From a virus (taxonomy: Duplodnaviria; Caudoviricetes), in the IMG/VR virus record IMGVR_UViG_2908764845_000006, positions 47,991 to 111,990 of that record: DNA of 64,000 nt. One strand, 5' to 3'. The notes under the pieces were generated by a model, which saw only the letters and a program-made list of their open reading frames with translations, had not been told where the DNA came from and made no database searches. The stretch's first letter is position 1. Each line of letters opens with the position of its first letter. Shown here one piece after another: positions 6,880 through 14,770 of the stretch. Made by a program: the position numbers and the translations under genes.

Positions 6880-7270
6880 GCTTGCAGACCCCCGACGATG
6901 TTTCGCCCCATCGCCTTACAGCGGGCTGGTTTGGTCGCCGATTTCTTTGCCTTCAGTCGGGACGCGCCTTTCTCCGACATCCGCTGTGGAGGGCATCTCT
7001 CCCCCGCTCCGGGCACGTGGCTCCCCGGTCAGCGCGGCTTGCATGGCGGGGTCCGTTGACCGAGCCGTTGCCACGGCAGTCTCGGGCGGATACCCCTGGG
7101 TGTGTGAAGTGAAACGCGACAGCCCGCCCTATACGGCGTCCCGACCGCGCACGGGCGCGGCGGGCGAGCTATGTGGGCGAGAGAGCCAGGCGGTGTCGCT
7201 TGGCGTCAACGAAGCGAAACGGGCCGGGACGCCCGGCTCTCTCGTGAGGTCGGGGCTACGCGATACAAGC
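6880..7270 (-). ncRNA. candidate large structured RNA
   Basis: No convincing ORF; several 7-10 bp long-range complementarities; lies directly 3' of tRNA-Met. Confidence 0.5.
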
Positions 7271-7279
7271 GCCCCTATC

Positions 7280-7356
<77 letters not shown>

Positions 7357-7363
7357 GAAAACT

Positions 7364-7630
7364 CTAGCAGTTGAAGTGCTCGATCGTTGCGATCAGCAGG
7401 TTCGAGCGGCAGATGTCTTGGTTCATGTTGAACCAAACGACCGCCGCGATGTGACCCTCGATGTGCTCGATGGTGACCGGCACGTCGTCGCCCTTGGTCG
7501 TGACGACGTCGCCGACGTTGAAGTCGTGCTCGGGCACCGTCCGCGGATCGGCTTCGACGCGCTTGCTGGTGTTGGTGCCGGACTCGATGATGGTCTCGAC
7601 GACATCGTCGCCGGTGGCCTGATGGGTCAC
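7364..7630 (-). CDS. YodC/DUF2158-like small protein
   Basis: FNVGDVVTTKG..VTI...VWF; AAAGAGACC upstream. Confidence 0.6.
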   Translation of the reverse strand: MTHQATGDDVVETIIESGTNTSKRVEADPRTVPEHDFNVGDVVTTKGDDVPVTIEHIEGHIAAVVWFNMNQDICRSNLLIATIEHFNC

Positions 7631-7865
7631 TGGTGGGGTCTCTTTCTACTGTGGGGGAAAGGTGTCCAACGAGGGCCGCTTGCGGTACCTGAAACGCTGA
7701 CTTGACCAGCGGCCCGTAGCGCCCACCCTCGTTGAACTGCGCCAGTCCGCGAACAGGGCTGCTGGCGAATTGATGCGGCGGTGTTTTTCGGCCGAAGCCT
7801 CTGCCTACCATTAAGCGCCCCGCAAACGGCGCACCGCGAGAGGGCCCATCGTGGGGCCCTTTGAA

Positions 7866-8171
7866 CTAGATGACCTTGAAGTACTCGCGCCCGAAGAACA
7901 CCGGGTGGCGACCGCGCCATGTCGAGCCGCGGCGAAGCCATCGCCTCAGATGCTGCGGGCTGCGGAAGCGGTAGACGATCCTGGCCGTCCAGTTGCCGTA
8001 TCCGTAAATGCGCTTGATGCCATCGAGCAGCGCGAGCCGGCTGGCCTCAGCCTCTTCGCCGCCGCGCGCGATATGCGGCGTGGTCTGGTCGACCACGATG
8101 TCACCGTACTCCGCGTCCTCGTCGACGTTGAAGCACTCGATCACGACCAGCTCGTTGCGGCGGCGCTTCAT
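7866..8171 (-). CDS. hypothetical protein
   Basis: MKRRRNELVVIECF... frame with plausible composition. Confidence 0.5.
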   Translation of the reverse strand: MKRRRNELVVIECFNVDEDAEYGDIVVDQTTPHIARGGEEAEASRLALLDGIKRIYGYGNWTARIVYRFRSPQHLRRWLRRGSTWRGRHPVFFGREYFKVI

Positions 8172-8179
8172 GAGGACCT

Positions 8180-8680
8180 TCAGAATGGGAGCGCGGCTGC
8201 CGGGCAGATGCCGGCCAAGTAGCGCAGCGCCCGGACAGCCAGGTCGAGCTCGGTCGGCGCCTGCGCGTCGACGAACAGCGTCATCGCGAGCTGGTCGGAG
8301 CAGCGCTTGGTCGAGCCCCTGATCTCGCACACGGCGCCGGCGCGACCCGGGACGGTGAGAGCGGCGTACTTGGCGCCGCGCGAGGCGCGATACTCGTCGG
8401 ACAGCTTGTCGAACGAGATCGTCTCGACGATGGGCCCGTCCCGGTGCCGCAGCGTGAACGTGCACTTCTCGCCGGGAGCGTGGTTCACCTCGAACTTCTC
8501 GCCGATGTGCCCCTCGTCCTCGTCGTGGACGCCGATCTGGTCCTGCAGGTTGTTCTCGAGGGCGAAGATCCGCGCAGCGGCTGCGATCGGCTTCATGGCC
8601 TCGGGGATGTCGTCGGCCGCGGCCGGCACAAGGGCGGCGGCGAAAGCGATGGCGGTGATGGCGATCCTGGGCACGGTCAT
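8180..8680 (-). CDS. putative secreted protein
   Basis: Signal peptide MTVPRIAITAIAFAAALVPAAA-DD. Confidence 0.6.
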   Translation of the reverse strand: MTVPRIAITAIAFAAALVPAAADDIPEAMKPIAAAARIFALENNLQDQIGVHDEDEGHIGEKFEVNHAPGEKCTFTLRHRDGPIVETISFDKLSDEYRASRGAKYAALTVPGRAGAVCEIRGSTKRCSDQLAMTLFVDAQAPTELDLAVRALRYLAGICPAAALPF

Positions 8681-8706
8681 GGCCCGAGAACTATCACCGG
8701 CGGAAC

Positions 8707-8863
8707 TGGCTGGGAAGGGTGGGCTCGAACCACAACCCACCGAGGAATTGGAGATCCGTTAGCCGAAGGCGCGATGGTATGACCGCGGAGACTTCGACCT
8801 TTCGGCGAGGAGCTGGGGACGGATCGAGCCCCTGACGTCGCGAAAGCTCCAGATACCATCCCA
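8707..8863 (-). ncRNA. 157-nt tRNA-like RNA (acceptor stem, T-arm, CCA; no D or anticodon arm)
   Basis: 5' TGGGATG pairs with CTTCCCA-G-CCA; GTGG-TTCGAGC-CCAC T-arm; 25 nt downstream of tRNA-Phe. Confidence 0.7.
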
Positions 8864-8888
8864 GAACACCGCCAAGCCTGCCTATCTT

Positions 8889-8964
8889 TGGTGCCAAGGG
8901 ATGGGTTTGAACCACCGACGCCCGCGCCTTCAACGCGGCGCTCTACCGGCTGAGCTACCTTGGC
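8889..8964 (-). tRNA. tRNA-Phe (GAA)
   Basis: 76-nt cloverleaf GCCAAGG..CCGCG TT-GAA-GG CGCGG..TTCAAAC..CCTTGGC A CCA. Confidence 0.93.
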
Positions 8965-9452
8965 GAATGAGCAGCCCTGCCCCCGGCGCGACCGGGTTCA
9001 ATCGAACCGCCGCTGCGTATTGCCATGGTGCGCAGCGGCGACAAGATCGGGAGGCGTCCTGAGACGCGCAGGGCATGAAACTGACTGAGGGACCGCCTCC
9101 GACAGAGACGGCCCCTCGATAGTCGGTCACGACGAACTGACAAACAATGCGCGAAGGAGCGGTACGAGCACCTCGTTGCATCGGGGGCGCGTATAGCGCG
9201 CCCCGCCAGCACGATGGAAGAAAAATCTTGGTCTCGCGATCAGCAATTCGTGAGTGCCCGGCGTGGAGCCTCAGCGATCGAGCTCGTGCAGGAAGGCGAG
9301 GCATTCGACGCCGCAGTCGGTGCGGACCTTGGCATAGTCGACGCCGATGCGCGAGCTGTGGATCGACAGGACGGTGGCGCGCCGCGCGTCTGGGCGCGGA
9401 TCGCCAAGCCGCAGGAACTTGAGCGTCACGCGGTCGCCGACCTTGACGTCGT

Positions 9453-9749
9453 TCACCACCAAGCATCCACGATCTGGTCGTGCGGTACGAAGGCCTTGCC
9501 GCCGTCGAGTACGTAGACGCGGGCGCCCAGCTCGGGGACGATCACCTTGGTGATCACCCGCGGCGTGTTCGGGAAGCACTTGGTGCGGACCGTCATACCC
9601 TGCCGGTAACCGCGCACGCGATCGAAGGCGCGCTCAGTGACGCTGCCGAACTCGCGGTGGAAGTGGAAGCGGCCGCGGAACGTGACGCTGCCGACGAGCT
9701 TCGGCTCGTCAGAGGGCTGCGGCTGGACGGCGACCTCCACCTTGCTCAC
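9453..9749 (-). CDS. hypothetical protein
   Basis: Coupled ORF in leftward operon. Confidence 0.55.
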   Translation of the reverse strand: MSKVEVAVQPQPSDEPKLVGSVTFRGRFHFHREFGSVTERAFDRVRGYRQGMTVRTKCFPNTPRVITKVIVPELGARVYVLDGGKAFVPHDQIVDAWW

Positions 9750-10180
9750 GCGCGCACCAGACCGTTGGCCTCGGTGAGCGAGCCCGCCTCGATCTGGCGG
9801 AGCCGCCGCGCCACTGCGCGGGGACCGTTGAGACCGTTCTTGTAGTAGGCGGCGGTGCGCTGACCGCGCGTGATCCAGCGGATGTAGCGGCGCGAGCCGG
9901 TGCCGGACATGGCGAGAGCGGCCGCTTGAGCGGCGACGTGATCGAAAGCGCGTTTGAACATGGCGGGGGACCTGCGTGGGTGCTTGACATGGAAATGCCC
10001 GGGCTGGGCCCGGGCATCAGGATAGTTGCCGCTGTTCTCAAAGCCGGATGCGCCCCCACGGACATCACAGCGAGGGCCCGACGGGAGACCAATCTCGTCG
10101 GCTAGGCACGCGGCTCTCCCCATGGCCTAGAGGTGGCCCCGCCCCTGTTGGTCCAGAGGCGAGGCCGTTGTCGTGGTCGG

Positions 10181-10699
10181 TTACTGCGCGGCGGGAGCCG
10201 CAGGAGCAGCAGCGGCGGCAGGGTCAGCAGCAGGAGCAGCGGGAGCCGCAGCCGGATCGGTCGGAGCCGGAGCCGCCGCCGGCGCCTGAGTGGCGTCGGC
10301 CGGAGCAGCAGCCGGGGCCGCAGCGGCGGCAGCAGCGGGAGCCGGCTGACCAGCCAGCGCGGTCTGCGCGGCGTTGACCGCATCGCCGAGCGCCTTCACC
10401 ACGCCGTCGATGGCGTTGGCCGAGGACTCGACCACGGCCGGGTCGACACCGGGCACCTGGCTGGCGATGGCGACGATCTTGGCGGTCTCGGTCTGCATGA
10501 TCGAGACGGCGGCGGGGATCGCGGCAAGCAATGCGGCGACGGCGGTGGTGAGATGATCCTGTTCAGCGGACATATGCTGCAGCTCCAGTTCAAGGTGAGC
10601 CATCCGCTGCTCCATCGAGAGATGCGGAGGACGAGATGCGCGGCGCTGATTGCGCTTGGCGCGGTGGATGTTGATGAGGTCGAGTAGTTCAGCGAACAT
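10181..10699 (-). CDS. hypothetical protein with Ala/Pro-rich low-complexity tail
   Basis: Helical N-terminal half followed by APAAA repeats. Confidence 0.6.
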   Translation of the reverse strand: MFAELLDLINIHRAKRNQRRASRPPHLSMEQRMAHLELELQHMSAEQDHLTTAVAALLAAIPAAVSIMQTETAKIVAIASQVPGVDPAVVESSANAIDGVVKALGDAVNAAQTALAGQPAPAAAAAAAPAAAPADATQAPAAAPAPTDPAAAPAAPAADPAAAAAPAAPAAQ

Positions 10700-12262: not shown

Positions 12263-13864
12263 TCAGCCGCTGTCGTTGTCAGCTGGCAGGTTTTTTTGAG
12301 CGGTGCAATTGAACGGCAACAGATCTTCGATATCGGCGTCTGGCGCGCGTTGGGGCAATTCGGTGAGCGCGTGACGTAGCCATGCATAGGGATCGACGCC
12401 GCATGCCCGGCATGTCAGCACCAAACTGTAGATCACGGCGCTTGCCTTGGCGCCGGCAACGGTGTCGCTGAACAGCCAACTTTTTCGTCCGGTGCAAAAC
12501 GGCCTGATGTCGCGCTCCAGAACATTGTTATCGATCGGGGCGAGACCGTCACTGGTGTAACGGGTCAGATAATCCCATTGGTTGCGTGCATAGGCGATCG
12601 CCTTGCCGGTCAAGCTTTCGGGTAGCACCTTCGGCGCCTGGTCGTCGAGCCAGGTCCGGAAGGCGGCCAATACCGGCAGGCTATGCTGCTGGCGCAGCCG
12701 CAAGGTGTATGCGGCGCGCGTTTCGCCGTCGGGCGGCGTCTGGCGCGCCACCCTCTCGACCTCGTACAACGCCTCGAAGAACTTGAGCGCCTGCAATGGC
12801 GGACCGCCAGGCTTTGTCCTGGCCTTGAGCGCATCGGTAAATTTCCTGCGCGCATGCGCCATACAGCCGAGATGGGTCGCGCCTGTCAGCGTGCGCCAGG
12901 CGTCATAGCCGTCGCTCATCAACAAGCCGCGATAGCCGGCCAGGAAGGCCTGAGGATGTTGCTGGCCGCGACCGGGCTGGTAATCGAACAGCACGACCGG
13001 CTGCGCGCAGTCCTGGCCGCTGCGATAGGCCCACATGAAGGATTTGGCCTGCGCATCACGGCCGTCCTCTTTAAGAACCTGGACCCAGGTTTCGTCGCCG
13101 TGGACCAGGGGCTGCGACATGAGCTTTTGCTGTAGCGCGTCATAGACCCGATGCAGATGCAACTCGCTCGCCCGGATCACCCAGTTGCCCAGCGTCCCGC
13201 GGCTGATGCTGACGTCGGCGCGCCCCAGCGCGTCCGCCACACGGTACAGCGGCGTGCCGTCGACGTATTTGTTGGCGAGCACCAGCGCCAGCGTCGATGG
13301 CGTGGCGACGCTACCCGGCAGCGGCTGCGCCGGCATCGGCGCGGTCACAATCGGGGTGTTCAGCGCGGTGCGCTCGCAGTGACGGCAGGCATATTTGAAC
13401 CGCACATGTTGCAGCACCGACGCCTTGACCTCGACGTGCAACTGCTCGGTGACGGTCTCGCCCATCCGATGCATCCGATTATGGCAGCACGGACAGTCCT
13501 TTTGATCCTCACCCAGATCGTGTTCGACGCGTTGGCGCGGCAGATCGTCAGGCAGCGGCTTGCGGCCGCGTGCCTTCGGCGCCGGCTTTGGAGCCTCCGG
13601 CAATCCCGTGTCCGGCACGGCGACCGCCTCGACATCGTCGTCGTCCCGGCTTTCAGCGGCGGCCTGCTCGGCTTCGTTGAAGATGCGCTCCTTGAGCTTT
13701 TCGCTCTTCGGCGCATACCGGTGCAGGCGCTCCAGGCGCAACTGCTCCTCTAGATGCAGCACGCGTTGTGCGAGTTTCTCGTTTTCGGCCTTCAGCGCCG
13801 CGATCTCGGCCGCGTGCGCCGCGATCAAGGCTTCCAGTTCGTGCGTCGTGGGCTTGCGACTCAT
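12263..13864 (-). CDS. tnpC: IS66 transposase TnpC
   Basis: Leucine zipper, zinc finger, HGDET, CMAHARRKF and IDNN..ER motifs. Confidence 0.95.
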   Translation of the reverse strand: MSRKPTTHELEALIAAHAAEIAALKAENEKLAQRVLHLEEQLRLERLHRYAPKSEKLKERIFNEAEQAAAESRDDDDVEAVAVPDTGLPEAPKPAPKARGRKPLPDDLPRQRVEHDLGEDQKDCPCCHNRMHRMGETVTEQLHVEVKASVLQHVRFKYACRHCERTALNTPIVTAPMPAQPLPGSVATPSTLALVLANKYVDGTPLYRVADALGRADVSISRGTLGNWVIRASELHLHRVYDALQQKLMSQPLVHGDETWVQVLKEDGRDAQAKSFMWAYRSGQDCAQPVVLFDYQPGRGQQHPQAFLAGYRGLLMSDGYDAWRTLTGATHLGCMAHARRKFTDALKARTKPGGPPLQALKFFEALYEVERVARQTPPDGETRAAYTLRLRQQHSLPVLAAFRTWLDDQAPKVLPESLTGKAIAYARNQWDYLTRYTSDGLAPIDNNVLERDIRPFCTGRKSWLFSDTVAGAKASAVIYSLVLTCRACGVDPYAWLRHALTELPQRAPDADIEDLLPFNCTAQKNLPADNDSG

Positions 13865-13989
13865 CGGAGTCTTGAATCGAAGTCATGCCGCCGCGTCAAC
13901 CGGGCTCCCATGTCTTCGTCATGTCTTCGGCCGCGTCATCTGAGAACGGCCATGCCGAAGCCCGATGACGCCGCCCGCATCGAACACGC

Positions 13990-14343
13990 TCAGCCCACGC
14001 TCTGATATTGCCGCACCGGATGACGACGCACCGCCGCGATGTTGATGCCGTCAAGCAGCCAGTGCAGCTCCTCCGTCGTCAGCGTCAGCACCGCCTCCTG
14101 ACTTCGGGGCCAGTGGAATCTGTCGGCCTCCAGCCGCTTCAGCAGCATCCAAAATCCTGACCGATCATAAATCAGCAGCTTGATCCGGTCGCGGCGACGA
14201 TTGCAGAACGCGAACACCGCGCGCTGGAACGGATCCAGCCCCATCGACTGCTCGACCACGATCGCCAGGCTGTTGATGCCCGCCCGGAAGTCAATCGGTT
14301 CGCGGTGAAGGTAGACCCGAAGATCAGACGCCAGTCGGAACAT
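13990..14343 (-). CDS. tnpB: IS66 accessory protein TnpB
   Basis: PIDFRAGINSL...FCNRRRDRIKLL...KRLE. Confidence 0.93.
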   Translation of the reverse strand: MFRLASDLRVYLHREPIDFRAGINSLAIVVEQSMGLDPFQRAVFAFCNRRRDRIKLLIYDRSGFWMLLKRLEADRFHWPRSQEAVLTLTTEELHWLLDGINIAAVRRHPVRQYQSVG

Positions 14344-14770
14344 CGCAACGCCCCAGCGCTTCAATCACCGCCGACAGCAACTGCGCGTCGCCGCCTTCCA
14401 GCGAAAGCGTCACGCCGTTGGGCATCGATGCCGTCAGCCGCCCTGCACAGGATCGCTCCGTCGCGCAAACCGCAATCGCGCCAGCAGATCGAGTTGGCGA
14501 CGGCGACGGCGCGCGAACCGGAATAAAGGCTGGCGCAATCGGCGCCCGCGCCTCCGGCTGGCCATCCCCGTTCTGAAGTTGTCGCTTGGCCACCCACTTG
14601 CGCAGCAGGTTCGCGTTCACGCCGTGTTGCAGCGCAAGCCCCGCCAGCGACACGCCAGACTGCAGACAGGCCTCGACCAGCCGCTGTTTGCTGGCCGGAT
14701 CATAGCGACGCCGGCCATTGCGCAACACGCCGACCGTCTCAAGTCTCAAAGGTTCTTCTGGAGTGATCAT
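14324..14770 (-). CDS. tnpA: IS66 TnpA (HTH)
   Basis: GRRRY...SLAGLALQHGVNANLLRKW. Confidence 0.9.
   Translation of the reverse strand: MITPEEPLRLETVGVLRNGRRRYDPASKQRLVEACLQSGVSLAGLALQHGVNANLLRKWVAKRQLQNGDGQPEARAPIAPAFIPVRAPSPSPTRSAGAIAVCATERSCAGRLTASMPNGVTLSLEGGDAQLLSAVIEALGRCDVPTGV

What the first reader, a model, noticed from the sequence alone, without database searches (positions are those of the whole stretch)
8707..8863. 157-nt tRNA mimic: Gln-like acceptor end, T-arm and CCA around a pseudoknotted core
Seen on the minus strand: 5' UGGGAUG pairs with CUUCCCA (one U-U mismatch), followed by discriminator G and an encoded CCA, with T-arm GUGG-UUCGAGC-CCAC. The D and anticodon arms are replaced by about 115 nt containing stems GGAGCU/AGCUCC, GGGG/CCCC and GCCGAA(A)GG/CCUUCGGC. 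A 7-bp GAUCCGU/ACGGAUC pairing could form a pseudoknot, and an internal AUACCAUC can pair with the 5' GAUGGUAU in competition with the acceptor stem. Established: U1-A72, G2-C71, G3-C70 and G73 are tRNA-Gln features; tmRNA needs G3-U70, which is absent; T4 encodes stable RNAs of unknown function in its tRNA cluster. Inference: an RNase P-processed tRNA-like ncRNA, possibly a decoy for tRNA-targeting defence or a conformational switch.
Basis: partly seen in the sequence, partly recalled or inferred. Interest (0 to 1): 0.75.

Follow-up and report, generated by a model that had tools for sequence, protein, structure and literature searches.

The report
Broken tRNA relic in prophage
This 157-base stretch in a Bradyrhizobium prophage keeps the two ends of a phage tRNA gene but has lost its decoding core, so it is most likely a wrecked tRNA gene left over from a shrinking tRNA gene cluster rather than a new kind of tRNA mimic.

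Summary
Only the ends are tRNA-derived. The last 48 nt (window 8754-8707) match phage tRNAs from the anticodon loop to GCCA. The first 7 nt are a known 5' acceptor strand of the same tRNA family.

That acceptor end is not Gln-specific. In 73 viral contigs it belongs to 42 tRNA-Gln, 28 tRNA-Asn and 2 tRNA-Trp, and one copy is uncalled. The surviving anticodon loop reads Trp (CCA).

The 102-nt interior resembles nothing searched and folds no better than shuffles (z -0.26). No single deletion restores a tRNA (0 of 1,520; positive controls 103-641 of 1,520). ARAGORN and Rfam find nothing.

The element lies in the middle of a ~119-kb prophage integrated at tRNA-Leu. Relatives carry 10 or 23 tRNA genes at this position; this phage keeps two. 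It was found whole in 1 of 401 genus genomes (the host itself) and in 0 of 401 family genomes. A sister strain's contig skips it.

Best reading (0.6): a rearranged tRNA pseudogene. A processed, functional tRNA-like RNA is not excluded (~0.15). No RNA data could be obtained.

The parts
8707..8863 (-). It lies 25 nt after tRNA-Phe and 26 nt before the ATG of the next ORF.
   Evidence: A sister-strain contig skips 8628-8887 with 74 letters between. The net difference of 186 nt is about the element plus one spacer.
8857..8863 (-). 5' acceptor-strand relic TGGGATG (element nt 1-7).
   Evidence: It forms 6 of 7 Watson-Crick pairs with 8711-8717. It is identical to the 5' strand of 3 of 72 phage tRNAs that share the 3' end. 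Chance expectation in 130 nt is 0.017.
8755..8856 (-). 102-nt interior of unknown origin (element nt 8-109).
   Evidence: Fold z -0.26. Single copy in the host genome. No significant tRNA similarity: P 0.05 forward and 0.20 reverse. No profile hit.
8707..8754 (-). tRNA 3' half (element nt 110-157): anticodon loop CTCCAAT (8747-8753), 3' anticodon-stem strand TCCTC (8742-8746), T arm (8718-8734), 3' acceptor strand CTTCCCA (8711-8717), G73 (8710) and CCA (8707-8709).
   Evidence: 14 of 15 identical to phage tRNA-Trp across the anticodon loop and stem, and 34 of 38 columns identical to phage tRNA-Gln across the T arm and acceptor. Score 54 against a null of 21.7+-2.0. Profile hit to nt 123-157, E 5e-05. 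It is the only match in host genome G139 to a phage tRNA-Trp.
8889..8964 (-). Intact phage tRNA-Phe (GAA) with encoded CCA, directly upstream.
   Evidence: 88% identical to the tRNA-Phe of the related prophage L007.
8180..8680 (-). 166-aa ORF with a signal-peptide-like N-terminus, directly downstream. In relatives it also follows a tRNA gene.
   Evidence: GC3 0.93.
7280..7356 (-). Intact phage tRNA-Met (CAT), the other surviving member of the cluster.

Best explanation
The element is a rearranged, non-decoding relic of one or more phage tRNA genes, left in a strongly reduced tRNA array of a ~119-kb temperate myovirus-like prophage of a Bradyrhizobium strain.

Shown: its first 7 nt and last 48 nt come from the phage tRNA family that shares the acceptor stem TGGGNNG/CTTCCCA, G73 and an encoded CCA. 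That family includes Gln, Asn and Trp isoacceptors, and the surviving anticodon loop is Trp (CCA). The D arm and the 5' strand of the anticodon stem are gone. About 102 nt of unrelated sequence stand in their place, so it cannot act as an adaptor in translation.

Inferred: it arose by insertion and deletion within a tRNA gene, or by a deletion that fused the 5' end of one array member to the 3' half of another member with the same acceptor stem. The many internal complementarities are incidental. It may still be co-transcribed with tRNA-Phe and trimmed at its tRNA-like ends, because an acceptor/T-arm minihelix is a known RNase P substrate (recalled, not tested here). No function of its own is needed to explain it.
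For: 1. Detectors. ARAGORN calls only tRNA-Met and tRNA-Phe in the window. With introns allowed up to 200 nt, and with the threshold lowered to 90%, it calls nothing at the element. Rfam gives nothing at gathering scores or at E<=10.

2. tRNA similarity is confined to the ends. The 3' part scores 37 against a null of 17.8+-2.0, with 0 of 300 shuffles as good. The 5' 35 nt score 14 against 17.6 (P 0.993). The interior has P 0.10. A profile of 331 phage tRNAs hits only nt 123-157.

3. The anticodon stem cannot form. From reading the sequence, no G-R-G-G-R partner for UCCUC lies upstream.

4. It is not a tRNA with a single insertion. 0 of 1,520 single-deletion variants are called as tRNA. The same scan on tRNA-Phe carrying an 81-nt mock insert gives 103-641 of 1,520.

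5. Locus context. The phage structural genes and both tRNAs lie on the same strand. Related phages carry large arrays at the matching place. L006 has 23 called tRNAs upstream of the phrog_5845 homologue. L007 has 10 around the homologue of the 166-aa ORF, with a tRNA-Gln directly upstream of it. This phage keeps 2 tRNAs, and an IS66 element lies nearby.

6. No conservation.
- The full-length element is in 1 of 401 genus genomes, and that one is the host itself at 100% identity.
- It is in 0 of 401 family genomes; the single hit is a marginal 29-nt match with no tRNA nearby.
- There are 0 matches in the phage collection.
- There are 0 exact 25-mers in viral contigs and 0 exact 21-mers in one genome each of 185,579 species.

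7. Sister strain. One 3,640-nt contig of run X3 (same species label, other sample) matches 8500-8627 with 3 differences, 8888-8968 with 2, and 8963-9100 with 0. It skips 8628-8887 and has 74 other letters there. The matching protein variant P0002 has a different signal peptide. That leaves about 24 nt between tRNA-Phe and the ORF, by my arithmetic.

8. Folding. Interior z is -0.26. The proposed T arm and inner arms have ensemble probability of 0.004 or less.

9. Precedent. tRNA arrays are known to hold pseudogenes. [quoted passage not shown]
Against: 1. The 3' half is little decayed. It matches an unrelated phage tRNA-Gln in 34 of 38 columns, with an intact T-loop consensus and CCA. It has only one stem-breaking change (U49-C65). 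The acceptor helix is predicted to form with probability 0.47-0.995. This fits a recent event, but it also fits selection on a minihelix.

2. Perfect inverted repeats are in excess. There are 7 of 6 nt or more against 2.56+-1.56 (P 0.0145), and 2 of 8 nt or more against 0.16 (P 0.013). The whole element folds somewhat better than shuffles (z -1.88).

3. The net 186-nt difference from the sister strain equals the element plus one spacer.

4. The origin of the 102-nt interior is unexplained. The 'fused array members' idea has only a borderline hint: nt 28-55 resemble a T arm plus acceptor strand, score 28 against 23.4+-2.1, P 0.05 from 60 shuffles. The profile search gave no hit to the interior, but it also gave none to any of 100 shuffles, so it had no power there.

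5. No RNA data were obtained, so expression and processing are unknown.

6. Contigs of closer ORF relatives could not be fetched. One is P0003, 79% identical, with an N-terminus like this one's. It might hold a homologue.
Confidence: 0.6

Rival explanations
1. It is a functional phage tRNA-like non-coding RNA. It would be transcribed with tRNA-Phe, cut by RNase P and 3' processing at its acceptor/T-arm minihelix, and CCA-ended. It would act as a decoy for tRNA-targeting host nucleases or tRNA-binding enzymes, or as a conformational switch.
For: The acceptor helix, T-loop consensus, G73 and CCA are retained. The terminal helix is predicted to be stable. Perfect complementarities are in excess, some mutually exclusive. 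The indel against the sister strain has cassette-like boundaries. Other uncalled tRNA-like genes sit in related or similar phage arrays: L006:6086-6166 and L048:3969-4120.
Against: There is no homologue anywhere searched. It is missing from a contig of a sister strain that is otherwise 97-100% identical over the flanks. The interior folds like shuffled sequence. The proposed T arm and inner arms are disfavoured in the ensemble, because the T-arm sequence pairs better with nt 33-40. The L048 element shares no interior similarity: local score 14 against 14.5+-2.3, P 0.67. There are no expression data.
Confidence: 0.15
2. It is the leftover att core of an integrative element, that is, a tRNA 3' fragment running from the anticodon loop to CCA. 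The upstream heptamer would then be a coincidence.
For: tRNA similarity starts at the anticodon loop. From memory, this is one of the crossover positions used by tRNA-targeting integrases. The record is a prophage with a tyrosine integrase.
Against: The prophage's own att is elsewhere. tRNA-Leu(GAG) lies 79 nt beyond the record's right end, next to the integrase, and a 17-nt repeat of its 3' end lies about 119.4 kb to the left. The element is in the middle of that span. No genome among 185,579 species holds the 21-mer of this 3' end. In the host genome the only match to a phage tRNA-Trp is the element itself. No intact partner tRNA-Trp was called in the record or in the 16-kb stretches fetched at each end. 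The 5' heptamer is expected only 0.017 times by chance.
Confidence: 0.05
3. It is a structured 5' leader that regulates the downstream 166-aa ORF, or a small protein-coding gene. The candidate gene is the 60-aa ORF at 8677-8859, whose TGA overlaps the next ATG.
For: The element ends 26 nt before the ORF's ATG. The 60-aa ORF starts at the ATG inside TGGGATG and ends in an ATGA overlap with the next gene.
Against: GC3 of the 60-aa ORF is 0.51, against 0.93 and 0.90 for the neighbouring genes. Homologues of the 166-aa ORF do without such a leader. L007 has 44 nt after a tRNA-Gln. The sister strain has about 24 nt (my arithmetic). Five metagenome loci have unrelated upstream DNA with no Rfam family upstream of the ORF. 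Rfam gives no riboswitch or leader match.
Confidence: 0.07

Closest known systems
tRNA pseudogenes and degenerate members of tRNA gene arrays (bacterial and phage arrays)
   Same: It lies in a phage tRNA array locus. Part of it is clearly tRNA-derived. Essential arms are lost, standard detectors do not recognise it, and it is not conserved. Arrays with non-expressed members are in print (PMC8421152, passages seen).
   Different: It is twice the length of a tRNA. The damage is a ~102-nt replacement between an intact-looking acceptor 5' strand and an almost intact 3' half, not scattered point decay. The two ends still pair.
Phage tRNA-Gln/Asn/Trp genes that share the acceptor stem TGGGNNG/CTTCCCA-G-CCA
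   Same: The 3' acceptor strand plus GCCA is identical. The T arm is nearly identical: 34 of 38 columns to the tRNA-Gln of L076/L079/L096. The anticodon loop and 3' stem are 14 of 15 identical to the tRNA-Trp of L056/L105. The 5' strand equals that of 3 tRNA-Asn, including the U6-U67 mismatch.
   Different: There is no D arm and no 5' anticodon-stem strand. 102 nt of foreign sequence are present. ARAGORN calls all 72 of those genes but not this one.
tmRNA (ssrA), including phage-borne and two-piece forms
   Same: It has a tRNA-like acceptor/T-arm end with CCA around a larger inserted domain.
   Different: Position 3-70 is G-C, not G-U. ARAGORN's tmRNA mode finds nothing at default settings, and only junk permuted calls at a 60% threshold. 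The in-frame reading up to the only TAA ends ...AFG, which is unlike a tag (my reading). At 157 nt it is well short of the ~360 nt I recall for tmRNA.
T4 stable RNAs of the tRNA cluster (species 1 and 2, rnaC/rnaD).
   Same: It is a non-tRNA segment lying inside a phage tRNA cluster. It could be released by the same processing enzymes.
   Different: No sequence or model was available for comparison. The T4 RNAs are conserved among T4-like phages (recalled). This element has no homologue in any collection searched.
Other uncalled tRNA-like genes seen here: L048:3969-4120 (152 nt) and L006:6086-6166 (81 nt)
   Same: They lie in phage tRNA arrays. Each has a 7-bp acceptor stem, a T arm, G73 and CCA. 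ARAGORN does not call them at default settings.
   Different: The L048 interior has no similarity to this one. The L006 example has normal tRNA length and an anticodon-like arm. Neither was studied further.

Membership tests
canonical tRNA | Cloverleaf recognised by tRNA detectors (D arm, anticodon arm, T arm, acceptor stem) | tested here: not met
   ARAGORN default, with introns up to 200 nt, and at a 90% threshold: nothing at the element. Rfam tRNA model: no match at gathering score or at E<=10, including a run on the 3' half alone.
canonical tRNA | Acceptor stem of 7 pairs, discriminator, CCA, and a T arm with the T-loop consensus | tested here: met
   6 of 7 Watson-Crick pairs plus U-U. 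G73 and CCA are present. The T stem has 4 of 5 pairs with loop TTCGAGC. The same U6-U67 mismatch occurs in 3 called phage tRNA-Asn.
tRNA gene interrupted by one insertion or intron | Removing one contiguous segment restores a detectable tRNA | tested here: not met
   0 of 1,520 deletion variants (60-91 nt removed) are called. Positive controls give 103-641 of 1,520.
tRNA pseudogene / array relic | Significant sequence similarity to tRNA genes over part of its length, with essential parts lost | tested here: met
   The 3' half scores 54 against a null of 21.7+-2.0. Profile hit to nt 123-157. The 5' 35 nt and the interior are not tRNA-like.
tRNA pseudogene / array relic | Lies where relatives have functional tRNA genes, and is not conserved itself | tested here: met
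   Arrays of 23 and 10 tRNAs in L006 and L007. The element is in 1 of 401 genus genomes (the host itself) and 0 of 401 family genomes. A sister-strain contig skips it.
tRNA pseudogene / array relic | Not expressed as a stable, aminoacylated RNA | not testable with these tools
   No RNA run held more than 0.05 of the sampled words, and none was laid.
tmRNA | G3-U70 alanine identity pair, and a tag reading frame with resume codon | tested here: not met
   Position 3-70 is G-C. ARAGORN's tmRNA search finds nothing at default settings.
att-site tRNA fragment | Identical to the 3' end of a host tRNA gene, and located at an end of the integrated element | tested here: not met
   0 exact 21-mers in genome contigs. 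The host's only match to a phage tRNA-Trp is the element itself. The prophage ends lie at tRNA-Leu and at a 17-nt repeat about 119 kb away.
conserved structured ncRNA (any Rfam family, or a new one) | Homologues with covarying base pairs, or a fold markedly more stable than shuffles | tested here: not met
   No homologues were found, so no covariation test was possible. z is -1.88 for the whole element and -0.26 for the interior. The excess of perfect repeats (P about 0.01) is the only positive sign.

The most novel reading that the evidence does not exclude
A temperate Bradyrhizobium phage has turned a broken array tRNA into a 157-nt CCA-ended tRNA-like RNA. The RNA would keep the acceptor/T-arm minihelix and a Trp-type anticodon loop of the Gln/Asn/Trp phage tRNA family. 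It would be cut out by the tRNA processing enzymes together with tRNA-Phe. It would act as a decoy or sponge for a tRNA-directed host enzyme or defence nuclease, or it would switch between two folds using its mutually exclusive 8-bp pairings. Elongated uncalled tRNA-like genes in other phage arrays (for example L048:3969-4120) would then be independent inventions of the same trick.
Probability: 0.12. Interest if true: 0.7.

Novelty: new member of a known kind. Interest (0 to 1): 0.27.

Why it matters
As a relic, it is a clear snapshot of how a phage tRNA array decays after lysogeny. Relatives keep 10 to 23 tRNA genes at this locus, while this prophage keeps two genes and one wreck. It also shows that Gln, Asn and Trp tRNAs of many phages share one acceptor stem.

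It is a caution for sequence-only reading. An acceptor end with U1-A72, G2-C71, G3-C70 and G73 does not identify a Gln tRNA in phages. In DNA with about 62% G+C, a list of hand-found stems is not evidence of structure.

If the element did prove to be a stable processed RNA, it would be a rare case of a phage re-using a broken tRNA as a tRNA mimic. That is worth one Northern blot, but not more on present evidence.

Tried and rejected
- tmRNA: rejected. Position 3-70 is G-C and there is no ARAGORN tmRNA call.
- tRNA with an intron: rejected.
- Repeat or mobile element as the source of the interior: rejected. It is single copy in the host genome, with only 15-27-nt chance matches, and has no copy in the record.
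- att remnant of this prophage: rejected.
- Copy of a host tRNA 3' end: rejected.
- Small protein gene: rejected on GC3.
- Array of several decayed tRNAs inside the interior: only a borderline hint (P 0.05). The profile search had no power there.
- Promoter and terminator scan of 7000-10500: 0 promoter-like sites, and 2 terminator-like sites against 1.7 expected, none at the element.

Searches for homologues that found none:
- Phage collection, blastn.
- Viral contigs 25-mer.
- Genome contigs 21-mer.
- 401 genus genomes and 401 family genomes.
- The neighbouring ORF's relatives brought 2 genome loci, 5 metagenome loci and 1 viral locus. Only L007 (and L111, the same prophage) has tRNAs there. 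BLAST and nhmmer of the element against L006-L013 gave only T-arm-sized matches.

Sequencing runs:
- X5 (a soil metagenome) gave only short pieces under 90% alike over the tRNA and the ORF. It says nothing about habitat.
- In X3 and X4 the stretch 8647-8877 has no cover. I rely only on the one X3 contig that joins across it.
- The 74 letters, and about 230 extra letters just upstream of tRNA-Phe in that contig, could not be read.

Literature: two searches and two passage look-ups turned up no description of such an element. This is not a claim that none is in print. Supplementary files were not consulted.

Full report
WHAT IS THERE

It starts with UGGGAUG and ends with CUUCCCA-G-CCA. A T-arm-like GUGG-UUCGAGC-CCAC precedes the 3' strand. 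All the named inner complementarities are present.

The element lies 25 nt after an intact tRNA-Phe (8964-8889). It lies 26 nt before the ATG (8680) of a 166-aa ORF with a signal-peptide-like start. An intact tRNA-Met lies at 7356-7280.

ARAGORN and Rfam see only the two tRNAs. The following also give nothing at the element:
- Rfam at E<=10 over 8600-9000, and over the 3' half alone.
- ARAGORN with introns up to 200 nt.
- ARAGORN at a 90% threshold.

At thresholds of 80% and below ARAGORN makes calls with other ends, which I take as noise.

WHERE IT IS

The window is the right-hand 64 kb of a 111,990-bp provirus record. The record is GC 0.648.

Terminase, portal, tail sheath, tape measure and baseplate genes lie on the minus strand at record positions 13-46 kb. 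The small genes, the two tRNAs and the element follow upstream on the same strand. An IS66 transposase pair lies at window 12263-14364.

The host genome is held as G139, where the element matches at 100%. A tyrosine integrase sits at the right end of the record. A tRNA-Leu(GAG) lies 79 nt beyond that end. A 17-nt repeat of its 3' end lies about 119.4 kb to the left, 7.3 kb outside the record. The element is therefore in the middle of one ~119-kb prophage integrated at tRNA-Leu. It is not that prophage's att site.

WHAT THE ENDS ARE

The pattern G-TTCRA-15N-CCA occurs 5 times in the window against 0.88 expected. None of 100 shuffles reached 5. Three of the five are tRNA-Met, tRNA-Phe and the element.

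A related prophage in Bradyrhizobium sp. Tv2a-2 (L007) has a tRNA-Asn whose 3' acceptor strand plus GCCA is identical to the element's. Its 5' strand differs at one base.

I searched viral contigs for the T loop followed by CCTTCCCAGCCA and found 73 contigs. ARAGORN calls the gene as:
- tRNA-Gln in 42 (39 UUG, 3 CUG);
- tRNA-Asn in 28;
- tRNA-Trp in 2;
- not called in 1.

So this acceptor end is shared by three isoacceptor families in phages and is not a Gln mark. Among the 72 called genes, the 5' strand is TGGGAAG in 53, TGGGTTG in 8, TGGGGAG in 8 and TGGGATG in 3. The last is the element's heptamer, and all three genes are tRNA-Asn with the same U6-U67 mismatch. These four heptamers occur 29 times in the 223,980 positions of the record. 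That gives 0.017 expected in 130 nt. The 5' heptamer is therefore very probably a real tRNA 5' end. This test is post hoc.

Element nt 110-124 (TCTCCAATTCCTCGG) are 14 of 15 identical to the anticodon loop, 3' anticodon-stem strand and start of the variable loop of two phage tRNA-Trp (CCA). Nt 121-157 match three phage tRNA-Gln in 34 of 38 columns. Against 463 unique tRNAs the 3' half scores 54, with a shuffle maximum of 21.7+-2.0.

In the 10.4-Mb host genome, the only match to that phage tRNA-Trp is the element itself. The host's own tRNA-Gln and tRNA-Asn differ from it.

WHAT THE MIDDLE IS NOT

The 5' 35 nt score 14 against tRNAs, with a null of 17.6+-2.2. The interior scores 28 against 23.4+-2.1 (P 0.05, from 60 shuffles) on the forward strand, and 24 against 22.6 (P 0.20) on the reverse strand.

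A profile of 331 phage tRNAs hits only nt 123-157. It gave no hit to the interior, but none to shuffles either, so it is uninformative there.

No upstream segment can pair with the surviving UCCUC strand, so the anticodon stem cannot form (my reading).

No single deletion of 60-91 nt restores a detectable tRNA: 0 of 1,520. The same scan recovers tRNA-Phe from four mock constructs in 103-641 of 1,520 variants.

The interior is single copy in the host. Its fold is ordinary: -33.9 kcal/mol against -33.04+-3.37 for shuffles, z -0.26. The whole element has z -1.88.

In the ensemble the terminal helix forms with probability 0.47-0.995. The proposed T arm and the two inner arms have probability 0.004 or less. 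The reason is that the T-arm sequence pairs with nt 33-40 in a perfect 8-mer.

The one sign of unusual structure is the count of perfect inverted repeats. There are 7 of 6 nt or more against 2.56+-1.56 (P 0.0145), and 2 of 8 nt or more against 0.16 (P 0.013).

A 60-aa ORF covers the element and ends in an ATGA overlap with the next gene. Its GC3 is 0.51, against 0.93 and 0.90 next door.

RELATIVES

L006 is a viral contig that shares the phrog_5845 gene at 56% identity. It has 23 called tRNAs upstream of that gene, plus two more CCA-ended units.

L007 has 10 tRNAs around the homologue of the 166-aa ORF, with tRNA-Gln 44 nt upstream of its start. Its tRNA-Phe is 88% identical and its tRNA-Met 78% identical to those here.

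This prophage has only two tRNAs in 112 kb. The locus is therefore a reduced array.

The ORF family is rare, found in 3 of 401 genus genomes. Its five metagenome relatives have no tRNAs upstream.

CONSERVATION

The element was found full length in 1 of 401 genus genomes, and that one is the host itself. The two other hits there are 32-34-nt marginal matches. In 401 family genomes there is no full-length match, only one 29-nt marginal match with no tRNA nearby.

It was not found in the phage collection. No exact 25-mer was found in viral contigs. No exact 21-mer was found in one genome each of 185,579 species. These collections may leave out records very near the window's own.

Sequencing runs give the most telling result. 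X1 may be the source of this DNA and holds the whole stretch. X3 carries the same species label but comes from another sample. One 3,640-nt contig of X3 matches the following:
- 8500-8627, with 3 differences;
- 8888-8968, with 2 differences;
- 8963-9100, with 0 differences.

That contig skips 8628-8887 and has 74 other letters there. It also has about 230 extra letters just upstream of tRNA-Phe.

The protein variant P0002 is 97% identical over 86% of its length and has a different signal peptide, which fits this contig. By my arithmetic, about 50 of the 74 letters encode that N-terminus. That leaves about 24 nt between tRNA-Phe and the ORF, with no room for the element. The net difference of 186 nt equals the element plus a spacer.

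INTERPRETATION

The best-supported reading is a rearranged tRNA relic in a decaying array (confidence 0.6).

Shown:
- the ends are tRNA-derived;
- the decoding core is lost;
- the interior is foreign and unremarkable;
- there is no conservation;
- relatives have intact arrays.

Inferred: how it arose. This could be insertion and deletion in one gene. It could also be fusion of two array members that share the acceptor stem, which the Gln/Asn/Trp family makes easy. It is also inferred that the complementarities are incidental.

Points against this reading:
- the 3' half is well preserved;
- the terminal helix is stable;
- perfect repeats are in excess;
- the indel is cassette-like.

These keep a functional tRNA-like RNA alive at about 0.15. 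The att-remnant reading (0.05) and the leader or small-gene reading (0.07) are weaker, for the reasons given under the rival explanations. The remaining probability covers causes I have not thought of.

COMPARISON WITH WHAT IS KNOWN

It fails membership of canonical tRNA, of intron-bearing tRNA and of tmRNA on features tested here. It meets the tested features of a tRNA pseudogene or array relic. Expression could not be tested.

tRNA arrays with silent members are in print. I saw passages of PMC8421152, where the authors considered 3 of 26 array tRNAs pseudogenes.

None was tested here.

VERDICT

Novelty: a new member of a known kind. Interest is 0.27.

Noticed in passing
L048:3969-4120 (minus strand), contig IMGVR_UViG_3300001398_000002: A 152-nt unit in another phage's tRNA array. 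It has a 7-bp acceptor stem (one G-U), a D-arm-like start, a T arm and GCCA, and ARAGORN does not call it. It sits in a tandem run of CCA-ended units about 30 nt apart. The 3' acceptor strand of each of two successive units is perfectly complementary to the first 7 nt of the unit after it. Its interior is unrelated to the element studied (P 0.67).
   Followed up: partly
L006:6086-6166, contig IMGVR_UViG_3300047388_000429: An 81-nt tRNA-like gene in the 23-tRNA array. It has an acceptor stem, a T arm, G73 and CCA, plus an anticodon-like arm with loop CTACGAA (ACG). It has no recognisable D arm. ARAGORN misses it at default settings and at the 95% and 85% thresholds. A second uncalled unit at L006:6247-6334 becomes tRNA-Ser(TGA) at a 95% threshold.
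   Followed up: partly
G139:C1:8452129-8452145 and 8571540-8571556 (L037:6130-6146 and L036:3541-3557); tRNA-Leu at L036:3543-3627: The prophage is integrated at tRNA-Leu(GAG), with a 17-nt direct repeat about 119.4 kb apart. The IMG/VR record starts 7.3 kb inside the left repeat and ends 79 nt short of the tRNA.
   Followed up: yes
window 8180-8680 (-): A 166-aa secreted-looking protein family with conserved cysteines and no Pfam or PHROG family. It is rare (3 of 401 genus genomes). In prophages it sits directly after a tRNA gene: Gln in L007, Phe or the relic here. Its signal-peptide region differs between two strains of one species.
   Followed up: partly
window 8963-8968, against the X3 contig: The sister-strain contig carries about 230 extra letters immediately upstream of tRNA-Phe. 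This is the size of about three tRNA genes. The letters could not be read, and they do not match the element at 80% or more.
   Followed up: no
window 12263-14364 (-): An IS66-family transposase (533 aa) and its TnpB-like Orf2 (124 aa) are inserted about 3.4 kb upstream of the tRNA region inside the prophage.
   Followed up: no
L007:5283-5358: The related prophage's tRNA-Asn has two U-U mismatches (5-68 and 6-67) in its acceptor stem. The 5' strand TGGGTTG recurs in 8 of 72 phage tRNAs that share the same 3' strand, so the mismatch is a recurrent natural form.
   Followed up: partly
L013:2329-2404 (-): A group II intron catalytic-domain match (50.7 bits) lies about 600 nt upstream of a homologue of the 166-aa ORF in a metagenome contig.
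   Followed up: no
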